From contig CAYXFY010000001.1 in NCBI GenBank assembly GCA_964464395.1, forward strand, positions 77,918-141,917: 64,000 bases of DNA, written 5' to 3'. Numbering within the stretch: the first letter of the stretch is position 1; the number at the start of each line of letters is the position of its first letter. Positions 26,362 through 29,839 of the stretch are shown here, in pieces. The translations under genes and the position numbers were made by a program. The notes under the pieces are model-generated. The model saw only the letters and a program-made list of their open reading frames with translations, was not told where the DNA came from and made no database searches. The DNA comes from an uncultured Nitrososphaera sp. GTDB taxonomy: Archaea > Thermoproteota > Nitrososphaeria > Nitrososphaerales > Nitrososphaeraceae.

Positions 26362-26544
26362 TTAAAAGATCTCGCCCTTGTCCTTCCTTACCCCGCCAAG
26401 CCCTGTCTTGACCTTCGTCGCGCACTCTAAGCAGACCCCCGGCGAGAACGGAAAGTCTCTGGTGCACTTTTTGCACACCGGCCTGCCGCAGTCAGAGCAT
26501 TCAAGAGTCGCCGTCCTGGTGTCGCATATGTAGCACAGGGTCAT
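26362..26544 (-). CDS. Small B-box-like zinc-finger protein (60 aa)
   Basis: MTLCYICDTRTATLECSDCGRPVCKKCTRDFPFSPGVCLECATKV. The longer ORF-track version (to 26700) has an implausible N-terminal extension. Confidence 0.5.
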   Translation of the reverse strand: MTLCYICDTRTATLECSDCGRPVCKKCTRDFPFSPGVCLECATKVKTGLGGVRKDKGEIF

Positions 26545-26612
26545 GCCACTATTGCGGCAAAGTGGCGTAAAAAGATTCGGCGCAAGCGTTAAATCTGAAA
26601 GGGCGGGCAATT

Positions 26613-27758
26613 GTGCAGATGCGAGCCGGAAGGCCGGGGCACATTTTCGCCTGCACGGGCAAGACTGAGCGTGAGTGCCTTGACCGCATGCTCTTTGCAT
26701 CAGGCAAGCTGTACGGCGACCGCGTGCTTGCGGTCAAAAAGGGCGACCCGCTGTTCCTGATAAATCTGGACACCGACACTATACACGGCGGGTTTTTCGC
26801 AAAATCAGACGGCAGAAAGGACATCGAGCCTGAAGCCTGGAAGGGTCGGTACCCGTACCAGGTGAGAGTCATGAAAAACGGCGCCGTGTATTCGACAAAG
26901 GGCGCAAAGAAGATGCTTGCCAAAATGGGCCTTTCGTGGCGGGACACGCTCGAGCCTGCTGCTGCAAGCGCTCTTGCGTCATATATCAAAAACCCCGACA
27001 GCACGATAGCCTCGTTCAAGAAAGAGGACGACAAACCCCGCCTCGAGTCAACGACGCTGTGGGACTATCCACGGCAGAGCTACGGCAAGACGCCCAAGGG
27101 CGACAACAAGTACGCCGGCGTCACGCCGGCGTTTGCCATCTACAACATGATAAAACGCTATACGGAACCCGGAGATCTTGTCCTCGACCCTATGGCCGGG
27201 AGCGGCACCACACTTGACGTCTGCAAAGAGGAGGGCAGGCGGTGCAAGGCGTTTGACGTAAACCCCGTAAGGCCCGAGATAGTCCGAAACGACGCGCGGA
27301 GAATCCCGCTGCAGGACGAGAGCGTTGACATGGTCTTTATCGACTCGCCGTACGGCGACAACATCGACTACAACGACCAGCCGGCCAATATCGGCATGAT
27401 CTCGGCGGAGACCGACGAGTTCTACGACGAGCTGGAAAAAGTGATGGTAGAGTGCAGACGCGTGATGAAGCCCGGCAAGGTGATAGGCTGGGTCATCGGC
27501 GACCAGTGGGTGAAAAAAAAATTCACGCCTGTTGGGTTTATGGTGTACGAGCGGCTTGCCCGGCACTTTGAGCCTGTAGACATCATCAGTCTTGTCAGGC
27601 GCGGCCAGACGTCCAACACCGGCGTCTGGCATTCGCGGGCCCTGCGCTTCAACTTTTACCTCCGGGGATTCAAATACCTGTTCATAATGAGAAAGCCCGA
27701 CGGCAGCGCGCCGGCAAAGAAGGGTAAGGTCAGCTGGACGCAGTACGCCAGACAGTAA
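26613..27758 (+). CDS. DCD/PUA-like domain fused to a SAM-dependent amino (N6/N4 or N2) methyltransferase
   Basis: 381 aa. N-terminus GHIFACTGKTERECLDRMLFASG...PLFLINLDTDTIHGGFFAKSDG...EAWKGRYPYQVRV matches DCD-domain motifs. C-terminal half has motif I VLDPMAGSGTT and motif IV FIDSPYG. Confidence 0.8.
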   Translation: MQMRAGRPGHIFACTGKTERECLDRMLFASGKLYGDRVLAVKKGDPLFLINLDTDTIHGGFFAKSDGRKDIEPEAWKGRYPYQVRVMKNGAVYSTKGAKKMLAKMGLSWRDTLEPAAASALASYIKNPDSTIASFKKEDDKPRLESTTLWDYPRQSYGKTPKGDNKYAGVTPAFAIYNMIKRYTEPGDLVLDPMAGSGTTLDVCKEEGRRCKAFDVNPVRPEIVRNDARRIPLQDESVDMVFIDSPYGDNIDYNDQPANIGMISAETDEFYDELEKVMVECRRVMKPGKVIGWVIGDQWVKKKFTPVGFMVYERLARHFEPVDIISLVRRGQTSNTGVWHSRALRFNFYLRGFKYLFIMRKPDGSAPAKKGKVSWTQYARQ

Positions 27759-27783: not shown

Positions 27784-28716
27784 TTGCGTGGGTTGCGCGC
27801 AATAGTACTGGCACTCGCCGCGGTCATTGCGCTCTCTGCGCTGAGTGTGAACCGGGCGTCCGCGCAGGCGCCGGAGGAGCGCACCATAGGAGTCTACCTC
27901 ATCAACGTGGGCAAGATAGAGTTGCAAACCGGCTCGTATGACCTAGACTTTTACATCTGGTTTGCCTCCACCAACCCGGACGTTGACTTTACCAGGCAGA
28001 CGCCACGCTTTGACTTCATGAACGCGCTGCGCACCACCGTCGAGCCCTCGCGCATCGAGCCCGACTACTACGAGGCTCGGGTCAAGGGCACGTTCATCAA
28101 GAACATGGACTTCAGGCAGTACCCCTTCGACACGCAGCTTGTGACGATAGAGATAGAGGGCTTTGACACTGTCGACAAGCTGGTGTTCGTGCCGGACTAT
28201 GAGGCGACCGGCTACGACGAACTGATAAACGTGCCTGGATGGGCGCTTGGCGAAGGGCGCTCTGAGGTTGTGGAGCACCGCTACCCTGACGGCACGTACT
28301 CGCGCTACGTCTTTACGTTCACGATAGAGCGCGCTCCGCTTTCGTCTTTCCTCAAGACGATATTCCCGGTCCTGATAATAACGACAATAGCCATGCTGGC
28401 GTTCTGGATGAGCCCCACCAACTTTGCTCCGAGGATAGGCCTTGCCGCATCGACGCTCCTCGCAGCCGTCGCCGCGCACCTGAATGCCGCAAACCAGCTG
28501 CCGCCGATAGGATACCTGACGCTGATAGACAAGGTGATGATAGTCGTGTATGCCCTGTTTTTGAACAACCTGCTCTCGATGGTCATGCAGATGAGGCTCG
28601 TTGACCATAACAACAAGGACGAGGCGGTGAAGGTGAACGCCAAGATGCGTAGGCTGATGCCGGTGATAATAGTGGTCATACTGGCCGCCCTGATACCGCT
28701 TGACTATCTGATGTAA
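27784..28716 (+). CDS. Prokaryotic pentameric ligand-gated ion channel (Cys-loop receptor family) homolog
   Basis: 310 aa. Signal peptide. Beta-rich ectodomain with YDLDFYIWF and the loop signature YPFDTQ. Followed by four TM helices (M1 FLKTIFPVLIITTIAMLAFWM, M2 RIGLAASTLLAAVAAHL, M3, M4). Confidence 0.75.
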   Translation: MRGLRAIVLALAAVIALSALSVNRASAQAPEERTIGVYLINVGKIELQTGSYDLDFYIWFASTNPDVDFTRQTPRFDFMNALRTTVEPSRIEPDYYEARVKGTFIKNMDFRQYPFDTQLVTIEIEGFDTVDKLVFVPDYEATGYDELINVPGWALGEGRSEVVEHRYPDGTYSRYVFTFTIERAPLSSFLKTIFPVLIITTIAMLAFWMSPTNFAPRIGLAASTLLAAVAAHLNAANQLPPIGYLTLIDKVMIVVYALFLNNLLSMVMQMRLVDHNNKDEAVKVNAKMRRLMPVIIVVILAALIPLDYLM

Positions 28717-28749: not shown

Positions 28750-28760
28750 TTTTTTATTTT
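28750..28760 (+). terminator. Oligo-T tract between convergent genes
   Basis: TTTTTTATTTT about 35 nt after the channel gene stop. It overlaps the stop of the convergent PhoU-domain gene. Confidence 0.35.
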
Positions 28761-29839
28761 GCCCTGACCGCAGTCTGCTTCTCTATCACTTCGTCTATTG
28801 TCTCGTTGAGCGCCGCTTCTGCGATGTCGCTTGCGTATTCTGCGGTCCTCCTGATGTCTTCTAGTACCAGCTTGATGCTTGCCGGATCCTTCACCCTGTC
28901 CTTCTCTATTGCTGCAACTGCCTCGTCTTCCAGCGCGCGTATCCCCTCCACCGCGTCGACCGTCCTGTCAGCAAGCTGGTAGTCGCGCCTCAACAACGAC
29001 TCGACAGAATCGCCCAGCACCGTGAGCGCAAGGTAGCTCATCTTTTCCACCTTTTGCATTGTCTCCTTTGGCAGCTTTTCCCTGAGCTTTACAGCCATCT
29101 CGGCCACGCCGCACGCGTGGTCGGCGACGCGCTCGATGCTCTTTACCGTCACCCTGTAGCTGAGGCAGTCAGAGGGGTTCTTGAGCCCCATCTCGCGCAG
29201 CACGCGGCCGTTCTGCGTCGCCATCACCAGGTTGCGCAGGACGTACAGTGAAAAGCGGTCGACCTCGTCGTCCGACTTTATCACTTCTCTTGCCAGCTCG
29301 TGGTTGAGCTCGGCAAGCGCGGTCATCGAGTCCCTATGCATCGACGAAGCTATCAGGTACATGCGCCTTATCGCCGTGTTCACGGAAAGCTCCGGCAGCG
29401 ACAGCAGCACCTGCAGGGTGATGATGTCAGACGCGTCGGCAATCATCTCCGTCCCCACCAGGTTGCGCCTGGCGACCTCCCTGACAGCATCGCGGAGCGT
29501 CGGGTTTATCCTGCCGGCCTTTAGCTTCAAATGAATGACGTTGTAGCCTGCAAGGTACATCGACACGACCTTGCGCTTGAGCGAGCTTGCGCCGTCGCCG
29601 GCCGCAATTATTGCAGTCGCTTCGGCAAGCGAGTCTGCCGGGCCGGCGCTTATGGGTACAATGGACAGCGAGTTGTCGGCCTCCCTGACAAGGGTGACTT
29701 GGTCGCCGGCCTTTACGCGCATTTCCTCTATCCACTTTTTTGGCAACGAGAGAACATAGGTGGACCTGCCGGTGAACTGGACCTTGCGGACCTCCCGGTG
29801 GTCGCCTGAAACCGCCTCCTGCCTGGTGGCCGTCTTCAA
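28754..29839 (-). CDS. AbrB/SpoVT-domain plus double PhoU-domain phosphate regulator
   Basis: 361 aa. N-terminal swapped-hairpin motif FTGRSTYVLSLPKKWIEEMRVKAGDQV, then two PhoU-like helical repeats. Confidence 0.8.
   Translation of the reverse strand: MKTATRQEAVSGDHREVRKVQFTGRSTYVLSLPKKWIEEMRVKAGDQVTLVREADNSLSIVPISAGPADSLAEATAIIAAGDGASSLKRKVVSMYLAGYNVIHLKLKAGRINPTLRDAVREVARRNLVGTEMIADASDIITLQVLLSLPELSVNTAIRRMYLIASSMHRDSMTALAELNHELAREVIKSDDEVDRFSLYVLRNLVMATQNGRVLREMGLKNPSDCLSYRVTVKSIERVADHACGVAEMAVKLREKLPKETMQKVEKMSYLALTVLGDSVESLLRRDYQLADRTVDAVEGIRALEDEAVAAIEKDRVKDPASIKLVLEDIRRTAEYASDIAEAALNETIDEVIEKQTAVRAK

What the first reader, a model, noticed from the sequence alone, without database searches (positions are those of the whole stretch)
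26613..27758. DCD (PUA-like) domain fused to an amino-methyltransferase: a possible reader-writer fusion
Seen:
- The N-terminal ~100 aa match the hallmark DCD motifs (GHIFACTGKTERECLDRMLF, PLFLINLDTDTIHGGFFAKSDG, EAWKGRYPYQVRV).
- The C-terminal half has a SAM-binding motif I (VLDPMAGSGTT) followed ~50 aa later by motif IV (FIDSPYG), the order seen in gamma-type DNA amino-methylases and in Trm11/RlmL-type RNA N2-G methylases.
- No restriction endonuclease gene is adjacent. The neighbours are a B-box-like mini-protein (divergent, 68 bp away) and a ligand-gated channel homolog.
Established: DCD was described as a plant domain and belongs with EVE, YTH and ASCH in the PUA-like fold, several of which read modified bases.
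Inference: this is an orphan methyltransferase whose targeting or regulation depends on recognising a modified or specific nucleic-acid feature.
Basis: partly seen in the sequence, partly recalled or inferred. Interest (0 to 1): 0.6.

Follow-up and report, generated by a model that had tools for sequence, protein, structure and literature searches.

The report
Orphan DCD-fused DNA methyltransferase
This Nitrososphaera gene encodes a DNA methyltransferase fused to a PUA-like DCD domain; it is a leftover of a widely exchanged restriction-modification system that has lost its restriction enzyme, and this fusion type has already been described.

Summary
ORF 26613-27758 (+) encodes a 381-aa protein with an N-terminal DCD domain (Pfam PF10539, E=1e-16). 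Its C-terminal part is an N6/N4 amino-methyltransferase domain (PF01555, E=1e-23) that is circularly permuted: motif I comes before a D-S-P-Y motif IV.

The gene stands alone in this window. Full-length orthologs (55-66% identity) occur in about a dozen bacterial and archaeal phyla. There they sit 0-120 bp upstream of, or overlap, a BsaWI/CCGG-family PD-(D/E)XK restriction endonuclease: 26 intact copies and 6 decayed ones among 80 loci.

The window's gene belongs to a monophyletic clade of 41 Nitrososphaera rows (SH-aLRT 100). No clade locus with enough downstream sequence (39 of 41) shows the endonuclease. The clade occupies one fixed chromosomal site, and both domains are under purifying selection (dN/dS 0.16 and 0.08).

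So this is a solitary DNA methyltransferase descended from a Type II R-M system, not a Trm11-like tRNA enzyme. Trm11 is nonetheless the best structural match, because it shares the same linear topology.

Bell, Wolf and Koonin (2020) already described DCD-methyltransferase fusions followed by PD(D/E)XK nucleases. The "reader-writer" idea remains untested. The new points are modest: the endonuclease family is identified, and the methyltransferase survives as an orphan in this lineage.

The parts
26613..27758 (+). DCD-methyltransferase gene. It is 381 aa from GTG 26613; the probable true start is ATG 26619, giving 379 aa.
   Evidence: ORF list and translation. Orthologs at 55-92% identity. Orthologs start at the position of the ATG.
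26589..26594 (+). TATA-like TTAAAT box about 27 nt upstream of ATG 26619, within the 68-74 bp divergent intergenic region. Candidate archaeal promoter for a leaderless mRNA (inference).
   Evidence: Sequence read directly. Not tested functionally.
26637..26990 (+). DCD (PUA-like) domain, aa 9-126. [quoted passage not shown]
   Evidence: Pfam PF10539, aa 9-88, E=1e-16. AF2 model with pLDDT above 90 across the region and a matching secondary-structure order. The window protein keeps all 12 positions that are invariant in 22 orthologs from many phyla.
27051..27086 (+). Family-specific conserved segment TTLWDYPRQSYG (aa 147-158) between the linker and the motif X/I region.
   Evidence: Invariant or nearly invariant in alignments A1 and A2. 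Function unknown.
27033..27707 (+). Rossmann-fold amino-methyltransferase domain (aa 141-365), circularly permuted relative to beta-class N6/N4 DNA methyltransferases.
   Evidence: PF01555 matches in two swapped pieces. PDB 2zie aligns in two swapped pieces. PADLOC MTase_II, E=1.4e-23. Fold search spans model residues 141-364.
27180..27212 (+). SAM-binding motif I, VLDPMAGSGTT (aa 190-200).
27342..27353 (+). Catalytic motif IV variant D-S-P-Y (aa 244-247). It is invariant as DSPYGDN in all full-length DCD-fused orthologs aligned in A1/A2; the DCD-less relatives mostly have DPPY.

Best explanation
The gene encodes a solitary (orphan) SAM-dependent DNA amino-methyltransferase, producing N6-methyladenine or N4-methylcytosine. 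It descends from a horizontally mobile Type II restriction-modification operon made of a DCD-methyltransferase and a BsaWI/CCGG-family PD-(D/E)XK endonuclease.

In the Nitrososphaera lineage that includes this genome, the operon settled at one chromosomal site, between a resident 60-aa zinc-ribbon gene and the PhoU/pst genes. The endonuclease was then lost, and the methyltransferase has since been kept by purifying selection.

Basis of each part:
- Shown here: domain composition, the circular permutation, endonuclease linkage in the orthologs, clade structure, synteny and selection.
- Inferred: the enzyme still methylates a short site, probably one containing a CCGG core, because every partner endonuclease keeps the CCGG-reading R-E-R motif. 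In this genome the mark would serve a non-restriction role, either epigenetic or protection against incoming systems of the same specificity.
- Inferred and untested: the N-terminal DCD domain is an integral nucleic-acid-binding module of the enzyme. It occupies the slot where the target-recognition domain lies after the permutation. My rough odds for its role are:
  - 35%: it binds the already methylated base of a hemimethylated site (maintenance logic).
  - 35%: it is an ordinary targeting or DNA-clamping domain.
  - 15%: it senses another modification, as Bell et al. proposed.
  - 15%: something else.
For: Domains:
- PF10539 and PF01555 both score above cut-off.
- NCBIfam's best hits are adenine-specific DNA methyltransferase models, including CcrM.
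- The top PDB sequence hits are DNA methylases: 2zie, CcrM, N4C methyltransferases, RsrI.
- The best PADLOC hits are MTase_II.

Permutation: the profile halves are swapped.

R-M descent:
- In G122 the ortholog (64% identity) is followed after 3 bp by a PF18643 RE_BsaWI gene, E=1e-33.
- P0122 (58% identity) is followed by an overlapping RE_BsaWI gene.
- Of 80 GTDB-species loci with full-length orthologs, 26 have an intact endonuclease, 6 a frameshifted or remnant one, and 1 is cut by the contig end. Spacing ranges from a 74-nt overlap to a 120-bp gap, with a 4-nt overlap in five cases.
- All 26 endonucleases keep PD.D ... S.K..RER. This aligns with BsaWI D145, K165 and R169-D170-R171, the motif that reads CCGG (PMC4652773).

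Orphan clade:
- 41 rows, including the window, form one clade (SH-aLRT 100). Thirty-nine have no endonuclease within at least 800 bp downstream, and two contigs are too short to tell.
- Almost all clade loci with upstream flank have the zinc-ribbon gene divergently upstream, and PhoU/pst lies downstream in many. None of the R-M-linked loci has either.
- The own genome has no PF18643 hit.

Selection and structure:
- Median pairwise dN/dS within the orphan clade is 0.16 for the DCD part and 0.08 for the methyltransferase part.
- The catalytic and SAM motifs and all invariant DCD positions are intact.
- The AF2 model is confident: pLDDT 94.7, pTM 0.88.

Literature:
- Bell et al. 2020 report DCD-methyltransferase fusions usually followed by a PD(D/E)XK nuclease.
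- Nitrososphaerota are rich in persistent orphan methyltransferases (PMC10609329).
Against: - The best structural matches are tRNA m2G methyltransferases: Trm11 6zxv (Z 18.4, rmsd 2.5, 165 aligned) and TrmN/Trm14 (Z about 17). No DNA methyltransferase appears among the top 50. Sequential aligners are handicapped by the permutation.
- Motif IV is D-S-P-Y, not the canonical (D/N/S)-P-P-(Y/F).
- No methylation data exist. Neither the site nor the base (m6A or m4C) is known. The leading Asp leans toward adenine by the classical rule, while a CCGG core would lean toward cytosine.
- CCGG-containing palindromes are not avoided in this genome: ACCGGT O/E 0.90, TCCGGA 0.91, CCGG 1.32.
- The gene is not universal even in its own genus. 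Two of the five genus genomes sampled lack it, and one of these (G228) has a clean gap of 88 bp at the site.
- The partner endonucleases resemble BsaWI itself only weakly in pairwise comparison (E=0.18).
- A distant DCD-less relative overlaps a pseudouridine synthase gene.
- The DCD-EVE relationship could not be reproduced convincingly here: hhalign probability 11%.
Confidence: 0.75

Rival explanations
1. It is an RNA methyltransferase of the Trm11/Trm14/RlmL kind (m2G on tRNA or rRNA) or an rRNA N4-cytosine methylase. In this reading the DCD domain replaces THUMP as the RNA-binding or modified-nucleoside-reading module.
For: - The top fold matches are Trm11, TrmN and Trm14, with Z 16-18 and the same I-then-IV topology.
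- Weak UPF0020, TIGR01177 and Trm14 sequence hits surround the D-x-P-Y-G motif.
- The archaeal rRNA m4,2C synthase 8vyd is also a fold match, Z 14.1.
- No canonical Trm11 was found in this genome with TIGR01177; the best hit scores 30 bits against a cut-off of 316.
- A DCD-less relative overlaps a pseudouridine synthase gene.
Against: - Orthologs at 55-66% identity, with the same DSPYGDN motif, are operonic with a restriction endonuclease in 26 of 80 loci across many phyla. This makes sense only for a DNA-protecting enzyme.
- Sequence profiles favour DNA methylases by about 60 bits: PF01555 84.5 bits against UPF0020 22.2 bits, which is below its cut-off.
- The distribution is patchy: 7 of 61 Nitrososphaeraceae genomes, with clean absence in a congener. 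A core tRNA or rRNA modification enzyme would not behave this way.
- There is no THUMP domain.
Confidence: 0.08
2. It is still the modification half of a working R-M system, and the endonuclease is an unrecognised neighbour or lies elsewhere in the genome.
For: - The assembly is a draft of 44 contigs.
- Type II endonucleases are notoriously hard to recognise by sequence.
- A variable stretch follows the methyltransferase in many orphan-clade loci.
Against: - The downstream gene starts 25 bp after the stop codon and is a membrane channel homolog.
- The other neighbours are NUDIX, wHTH, PhoU and pst genes.
- No PF18643 hit was found in a genome that is 99% complete.
- tblastn with two partner endonucleases found nothing in the orphan-clade loci that have enough downstream sequence (39 of 41).
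- The content downstream of the methyltransferase differs between clade members, whereas a partner should be conserved.
Confidence: 0.05
3. It is a decaying, functionless remnant of the R-M system.
For: The partner has been lost, and the gene itself has been lost again in some congeners.
Against: - dN/dS is 0.08 (methyltransferase part) and 0.16 (DCD part) over about 200 pairs within the clade.
- The frame is open in the 39 clade sequences aligned codon by codon (the window plus 38 loci), and all catalytic and invariant residues are kept.
- The clade has 41 species-level rows.
Confidence: 0.03

Closest known systems
Prokaryotic DCD-Rossmann methyltransferase fusions followed by a PD(D/E)XK nuclease (Bell, Wolf & Koonin 2020, BMC Biol 18:159; PMC7641849)
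   Same: - The domain architecture is the same: N-terminal DCD, C-terminal Rossmann methyltransferase.
- The orthologs found here are followed by a PD-(D/E)XK nuclease, as that paper states.
- The distribution is the same: mostly archaea and thermophilic bacteria.
   Different: - The window's copy and its 41-row Nitrososphaera clade lack the nuclease. They sit at a fixed housekeeping locus under purifying selection.
- From what I read of that paper, it does not name the nuclease family, here PF18643/CCGG-family with an R-E-R motif. Nor does it mention the circular permutation of the methyltransferase or the D-S-P-Y motif.
Beta-class N6-adenine/N4-cytosine DNA methyltransferases (Pfam N6_N4_Mtase; TTHA0409 2zie, CcrM 6pbd, M.RsrI 1eg2, M.PvuII 1boo)
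   Same: Significant sequence similarity over both halves of the catalytic domain: motif X/I with the D-P-[MF]-x-G-S-G-T-T type, and motif IV through VIII.
   Different: - The linear order is permuted: X-I-II-III comes before IV-VIII.
- Motif IV is D-S-P-Y rather than D/S-P-P-Y.
- A DCD domain sits where the target-recognition domain would fall.
- The same genome also has four ordinary, non-permuted family members.
Archaeal Trm11 / Trm14 / bacterial TrmN (THUMP-containing tRNA m2G methyltransferases; 6zxv, 5e72, 3tlj, 3tma)
   Same: - They are the best structural matches (Z 16-18).
- The linear topology is the same, with an N-terminal nucleic-acid-binding domain followed by motif I and then D-P-P-Y-G.
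   Different: - Sequence scores are below the family cut-offs: UPF0020 22.2 against 22.3; TIGR01177 22 against 316.
- There is no THUMP domain.
- Orthologs are linked to a restriction endonuclease.
- The distribution is patchy and shaped by horizontal transfer.
Persistent orphan methyltransferases of Nitrososphaerota (HG3 GATC, HG10 GTAC, HG19 AGCT, HG12 CGCG, HG21; survey PMC10609329)
   Same: It is a solitary Type II-like amino-methyltransferase, inherited vertically within a thaumarchaeal lineage without an endonuclease.
   Different: - It is not one of those groups. HG21 proteins are 298 aa, and HG19 (383 aa) is present in all Nitrososphaerales surveyed, whereas this gene is in only 7 of 61 family genomes.
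- It is confined to one genus-level clade and carries a DCD domain.
UHRF1 SRA domain plus DNMT1 (eukaryotic maintenance methylation)
   Same: Functional analogy only. A PUA-like base-flipping reader of the methyl mark is coupled to a methyltransferase.
   Different: - The catalytic domain is not homologous (C5 versus amino-methyltransferase).
- UHRF1 and DNMT1 are separate proteins, whereas this is one polypeptide.
- No binding data exist for any DCD domain.

Membership tests
DCD domain (Pfam PF10539 Dev_Cell_Death) | Profile score above the curated gathering threshold. | tested here: met
   61.3 bits against a cut-off of 27.8, E=1e-16, aa 9-88 matching profile positions 2-84 of 126. 33 of 112 homologs also match, best E=2.6e-54.
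DCD domain (Pfam PF10539 Dev_Cell_Death) | Hallmark motifs: an N-terminal (F/I)F.C...T..EC..R.LF block, a central LFL.N......G.F.A.S.G block, and a C-terminal (Y/F)P.QV block. | tested here: met
   GHIFACTGKTERECLDRMLF at aa 9-28, PLFLINLDTDTIHGGFFAKSDG at aa 46-67 and GRYPYQVRV at aa 78-86. These positions are invariant or nearly so across phyla. The motif definitions themselves come from my knowledge of the plant literature.
PUA-like superfamily (EVE/YTH/ASCH/SRA) | [quoted passage not shown] | tested here: inconclusive
   - The secondary-structure order of the AF2 model fits: E9-14, H16-25, E27-30, H32-39, E46-51, E56-63, E82-96.
- hhalign of my shallow DCD and EVE alignments gave only probability 11%, E=0.003, over 39 columns at the KKGD hairpin.
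- A profile search of PDB sequences found no relative.
- The fold searches were filled by the methyltransferase domain, so the DCD part was barely tested.
- Bell et al. report HHpred probability 97%.
N6_N4_Mtase (Pfam PF01555) amino-methyltransferases | Profile score above the gathering threshold, and SAM motif I (F/M)xGSG(T/S)T. | tested here: met
   84.5 bits against a cut-off of 26.7. DPMAGSGTT lies at aa 192-200.
N6_N4_Mtase (Pfam PF01555) amino-methyltransferases | Canonical catalytic tetrapeptide (D/N/S)-P-P-(Y/F/W). | tested here: inconclusive
   The window has D-S-P-Y, with the first Pro replaced by Ser. The variant is invariant in all full-length DCD-fused orthologs aligned in A1/A2, including two whose endonuclease partner was confirmed (G122, P0122). 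DCD-less relatives have DPPY. It is therefore probably functional, but it is not the textbook motif.
Beta class of DNA amino-methyltransferases | Linear order IV-VIII, then the target-recognition domain, then X-I-III. | tested here: not met
   The order here is (DCD)-X-I-...-IV-VIII. Profile positions 113-213 map to aa 127-218, and positions 1-110 map downstream of them. 2zie aligns in swapped pieces. The protein is homologous to beta-class enzymes but has a gamma-like topology.
Type II restriction-modification system | A cognate restriction endonuclease gene adjacent to, or in the same genome as, the methyltransferase. | tested here: not met
   For this window: no nuclease among the neighbours and no PF18643 hit in the genome. 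For orthologs outside the Nitrososphaera clade the feature is met: 26 intact endonucleases directly downstream.
CCGG-family endonucleases (for the partner gene of the orthologs) | A PD...(S/x)xK active site and an R-(D/E)-R CCGG-recognition motif. | tested here: met
   PF18643, E=1e-33. PD.D, S.K and RER are invariant in 26 sequences and align with BsaWI D145, K165 and R169-D170-R171. The second acidic residue (BsaWI D175) is not conserved at the aligned position. The actual recognition sequence was not tested.
Trm11/UPF0020 tRNA m2G methyltransferases | Family profile above cut-off and an N-terminal THUMP domain. | tested here: not met
   UPF0020 scores 22.2 bits against 22.3, and only over aa 223-255. 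TIGR01177 scores 22 bits against 316.6. There is no THUMP hit; the N-terminus is DCD. The fold similarity is real (Z 18.4) but is shared by Rossmann methyltransferases of this topology.
Persistent (lineage-fixed) orphan methyltransferase | Presence without an endonuclease in most members of a taxon, at a conserved locus, under purifying selection. | tested here: inconclusive
   - For: a 41-row monophyletic clade without the endonuclease, a conserved locus, and dN/dS of 0.08-0.16.
- Against: only 3 of the 5 sampled genomes of the genus carry it, and 7 of 61 of the family.

The most novel reading that the evidence does not exclude
The DCD domain binds the enzyme's own product, a flipped m4C or m6A on the parental strand of a hemimethylated site. 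This would make the protein a single-polypeptide maintenance methyltransferase, following the UHRF1-SRA/DNMT1 logic in a prokaryote. In the ancestral R-M system, such a preference would keep the methylase from accidentally protecting unmethylated invader DNA. In Nitrososphaera, after the endonuclease was lost, the enzyme would have been retained as a heritable epigenetic marking system. If true, this would also give the first defined ligand for any DCD domain, including the plant cell-death proteins.
Probability: 0.2. Interest if true: 0.65.

Novelty: new member of a known kind. Interest (0 to 1): 0.33.

Why it matters
No DCD domain has a known ligand, although plant DCD proteins are linked to development and programmed cell death. 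A DCD domain built into a simple two-gene R-M system offers a tractable way to ask what DCD binds, because the R-M site and methyl mark can be read by sequencing. The orphan version in soil ammonia-oxidising archaea adds to this. It shows that both the DCD and the catalytic domain stay under selection without the endonuclease, so the pair has a role beyond self-protection. For annotation, the practical gain is that this gene should be called a solitary DNA methyltransferase of R-M origin, not a tRNA methylase. Its absence from congeners makes it a natural test case for lineage-specific epigenetic marks in Nitrososphaera.

Tried and rejected
- Single-sequence AF2 gave an unusable model (pLDDT 35). 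The alignment-based run replaced it.
- I tested whether the divergent 60-aa zinc-ribbon (B-box-like) gene is a dedicated partner. Rejected: it is in 43 of 61 family genomes against 7 of 61 for the DCD gene, it sits on a different contig in G122, and it is present in G228 and G200, which lack the methyltransferase. It marks the insertion site only.
- I tested whether the gene equals the survey's Nitrososphaera group HG21 (unknown site) or HG19. Rejected on length and distribution.
- Palindrome avoidance in the own genome gave no signal for CCGG-type sites as a clue to the recognition site. Only GATC (0.55) and CGCGCG (0.53) are low.
- DCD against solved structures by profile found nothing meaningful.
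- DCD against EVE by hhalign on my own shallow alignments gave probability 11%, which neither confirms nor contradicts Bell et al..
- Foldseek and VIA-align hits all fall on the methyltransferase domain.
- PADLOC has no model matching the partner endonuclease.
- A search for a canonical Trm11 in the genome found none above cut-off. This neither helps nor excludes the RNA reading.
Full report
**What is there**

The ORF at 26613-27758 (+) is open and codes for 381 aa. Orthologs begin at the position of the internal ATG at 26619. A TTAAAT box lies about 27 nt upstream of it, so a 379-aa product from a leaderless mRNA is likely.

Pfam places aa 9-88 in PF10539 Dev_Cell_Death (61.3 bits, cut-off 27.8). 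It places the C-terminal part in PF01555 N6_N4_Mtase (84.5 bits, cut-off 26.7).

**Anatomy of the catalytic domain**

The N6_N4_Mtase profile matches in two pieces that are swapped. Profile positions 113-213 (motif X/I) map to aa 127-218. Profile positions 1-110 (motif IV onward) map downstream of them. The best PDB sequence hit, the DNA methylase TTHA0409 (2zie), aligns in the same swapped way.

After this permutation the target-recognition domain would fall at the N-terminus, and that is where the DCD domain sits.

Motif IV reads D-S-P-Y-G-D-N. This variant is invariant in all full-length DCD-fused orthologs aligned in A1/A2, while DCD-less relatives mostly have DPPY. Relatives carry other N-terminal modules, such as ParB_N, HTH_ParB and winged helix, or none at all. 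The N-terminus therefore appears to be a slot for accessory DNA-targeting domains.

An alignment-based AF2 model is confident (pLDDT 94.7, pTM 0.88). [quoted passage not shown]

The fold searches are led by tRNA m2G enzymes. Trm11 6zxv scores Z 18.4 (rmsd 2.5, 165 aligned), and TrmN and Trm14 score Z about 17. Generic Rossmann methyltransferases follow at Z 14-16. Those enzymes share the linear order, and sequential aligners cannot follow a permutation. I therefore treat this result as the basis of a rival reading, not as an assignment.

**Context in this genome**

The neighbours are housekeeping genes:
- upstream: a ZnuABC-type importer, a wHTH membrane protein, a NUDIX hydrolase and a divergent 60-aa zinc-ribbon gene;
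- downstream: a pentameric-channel homolog 25 bp after the stop codon, then AbrB-PhoU, PhoU and pstB.

No nuclease is among them. The 99%-complete genome has no RE_BsaWI hit, one DCD gene and four ordinary, non-permuted N6_N4 methyltransferases.

**Relatives**

The protein has thousands of homologs. The nearest 120 clusters are 69-93% identical, and those that carry a name are called Nitrososphaera or "DNA methyltransferase".

Within Nitrososphaeraceae the gene is patchy. The DCD part was found in 7 of 61 genomes sampled: 3 of 5 in the window's genus, 1 of 1 in g3 and 3 of 4 in g67. One congener (G228) has the zinc-ribbon gene 88 bp from AbrB-PhoU, with nothing between them.

The decisive finding is in G122. 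There the ortholog (64% identity) is followed after 3 bp by a 239-aa PF18643 RE_BsaWI endonuclease (E=1e-33). A metagenomic ortholog (P0122, 58% identity) shows the same arrangement.

A scan of one genome per GTDB species returned 80 loci with full-length DCD-methyltransferases (55-86% identity). The phyla include Nitrososphaerota, Bathyarchaeia, Thermoplasmatota, Nanobdellota, Micrarchaeota, Archaeoglobales, Methanosarcinales, Baldrarchaeota, Nitrospirota, Thermodesulfobacteriota, Myxococcota, Chloroflexota and Kryptoniota. This spread is typical of horizontally exchanged R-M genes.

Endonuclease status downstream of the methyltransferase in these 80 loci:

| Status | Loci |
|---|---|
| Intact endonuclease (from a 74-nt overlap to a 120-bp gap; a 4-nt overlap in five cases) | 26 |
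| Frameshifted or remnant copy | 6 |
| Cut off by the contig end | 1 |
| None within at least 800 bp | 45 |
| Contig too short to tell | 2 |

**Tree, synteny and selection**

A maximum-likelihood tree (quick search, LG+C20) puts the window in a clade of 41 rows with SH-aLRT 100. All named rows are Nitrososphaera or unclassified Thermoproteota. Thirty-nine lack the endonuclease and two are undetermined. The clade is nested among endonuclease-linked forms, but the deeper branching is unresolved.

Nearly every clade locus with upstream flank has the zinc-ribbon gene divergently upstream, and many have PhoU/pst downstream. No R-M-linked locus has either. That fits one insertion, one endonuclease loss and vertical descent afterwards, with occasional later loss of the methyltransferase.

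A second group, of the Nitrosopolaris type (L087, L090-L092, L095), carries endonuclease remnants. It looks like an independent orphanisation still in progress.

Within the orphan clade the median pairwise dN/dS is 0.16 for the DCD part and 0.08 for the methyltransferase part, over about 200 pairs with dS between 0.05 and 1.5. Both domains are maintained without the endonuclease.

**The partner endonuclease**

All 26 intact copies keep PD.D, S.K and an uninterrupted R-E-R. In the pairwise alignment with BsaWI these fall on D145, K165 and R169-D170-R171.

The BsaWI structure paper states that CCGG-family enzymes use this R-(D/E)R motif to read the CCGG tetranucleotide, and that they have a PD...K...E variant of the active site (PMC4652773).

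I infer a recognition site with a CCGG, or possibly CCNGG, core. The flanks and the methylated base are unknown. The Asp at the first position of motif IV would classically suggest N6-adenine at an outer A, while the core itself would require N4-cytosine. Palindrome statistics in this genome give no hint.

**How it most likely works**

- Shown: the domains, the permutation, the R-M ancestry, the orphan status and the selection.
- Inferred: the enzyme binds duplex DNA, flips its target base into the D-S-P-Y pocket and transfers a methyl group from SAM to an exocyclic amine at a short CCGG-type site. In this lineage the mark no longer serves self-protection against its own endonuclease.
- Open: the role of the DCD domain. 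PUA-like relatives bind flipped modified bases: SRA binds 5mC, EVE binds 5mC and 5hmC, YTH binds m6A, and ASCH/YqfB acts on N4-acylcytosine (review PMC12707154). Bell et al. proposed that DCD recognises modified DNA that then receives supplementary methylation.

I see two readings of about equal weight for the DCD domain. It may read the methylated parental strand and so give a maintenance preference. Or it may be a plain targeting or clamping domain in the target-recognition slot.

A natural variant bears on this. In three independent assemblies, DCD (112 aa) and the methyltransferase (282 aa) are separate, overlapping ORFs that are still followed by the endonuclease. The split lies at an A/G homopolymer run. 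This shows the DCD is a discrete module, unless the split is a recurrent sequencing artefact or a recoding site.

**Rivals**

- An RNA methyltransferase of the Trm11 kind is supported by the fold ranking, by weak profile hits and by one distant relative that overlaps a pseudouridine synthase gene. The endonuclease linkage of close orthologs, the roughly 60-bit advantage of the DNA methylase profiles, the patchy distribution and the absence of THUMP all speak against it. I give it about 8%.
- A hidden endonuclease (about 5%) is disfavoured.
- A dead remnant (about 3%) is disfavoured.

**Comparison with what is known**

The architecture, and its usual nuclease neighbour, were published by Bell, Wolf and Koonin in 2020. 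This is therefore not a new kind of protein.

The additions made here are:
- the family of the nuclease, and hence a likely site class;
- the circular permutation and the D-S-P-Y variant;
- a lineage-fixed, endonuclease-less clade in soil ammonia oxidisers.

Nitrososphaerota are already known to be rich in persistent orphan methyltransferases (PMC10609329). This gene is not one of that survey's groups: HG21 proteins are 298 aa, and HG19 is universal in the order.

**Caveats**

- The tree is a quick search rooted on very long outgroup branches. Only the 41-row clade is claimed.
- "None" for the endonuclease means no tblastn hit at E <= 1e-3 within at least 800 bp downstream.
- dS values are high (median about 0.9).
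- The genome tallies include the unpublished genomes G132 and G225. No specific claim rests on either; they contribute only one count each to the totals 84 of 201 and 43 of 61.
- Identifying G184 as Ca. N. gargensis is my inference from the contig length, not a tool result.

Noticed in passing
window 27784-28716 (+): A 310-aa pentameric ligand-gated channel homolog starts 25 bp after the methyltransferase stop codon. Its Pfam Neur_chan_memb hit is sub-threshold (25.8 bits against 28.1). Among about 40 orphan-clade loci only L043 also has it (71% identity), so it looks like variable cargo at this spot.
   Followed up: partly
window 26362-26544 (-): A 60-aa four-cysteine zinc-ribbon gene with sub-threshold B-box and RING hits. 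It was found in 43 of 61 Nitrososphaeraceae genomes. It lies divergently next to the DCD-methyltransferase in nearly all orphan-clade loci, but it also occurs without it. It is a resident gene of unknown function that marks the insertion site.
   Followed up: partly
L143:1683-3509, L144, L145: In three independent assemblies the DCD domain (112 aa) and the methyltransferase (282 aa) are separate, overlapping ORFs in different frames. The split is at an A/G homopolymer run (GAAAAGGGGTAAAAA), and the BsaWI-family endonuclease still follows. This could be a true split, a recoding site or a recurrent homopolymer error.
   Followed up: partly
L087, L090, L091, L092, L095 (Nitrosopolaris-type clade); also L100, L110, L113, L114: Frameshifted or fragmentary endonuclease genes lie downstream of intact DCD-methyltransferases. 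These are further, independent cases of the methylase outliving its endonuclease.
   Followed up: partly
G000:C2:63195-63581 (outside the window): The same genome encodes a stand-alone 142-aa EVE-domain protein (PF01878, E=2.6e-40). It was found in 17 of 19 sampled genomes of the neighbouring family f2 (same order).
   Followed up: no
G000:C14:30651-31562, C4:5919-6560, C1:15254-15967, C3:85350-86048 (outside the window): Four canonical, non-permuted N6_N4 methyltransferase genes. They probably correspond to the persistent orphan m4C methylases reported for Nitrososphaerales.
   Followed up: no
whole genome G000: GATC is strongly under-represented (O/E 0.55), as are CGCGCG (0.53), CACGTG and AGCGCT (0.64). 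CCGG is over-represented (1.32).
   Followed up: no
L147:2283-4065: A DCD-less relative of the methyltransferase domain (P0130, 45% identity, DPPY motif) overlaps a PseudoU_synth_2 gene by 8 nt and is followed by a MazG-like gene. This hints that some distant members of this permuted family may act on RNA.
   Followed up: no
window 28754-29839 (-): An AbrB/MazE-like SpoVT domain is fused to PhoU domains (361 aa), upstream of a second PhoU gene and pstB. It is conserved at 78-94% identity in most relatives but is missing in G238, L039 and L040.
   Followed up: no
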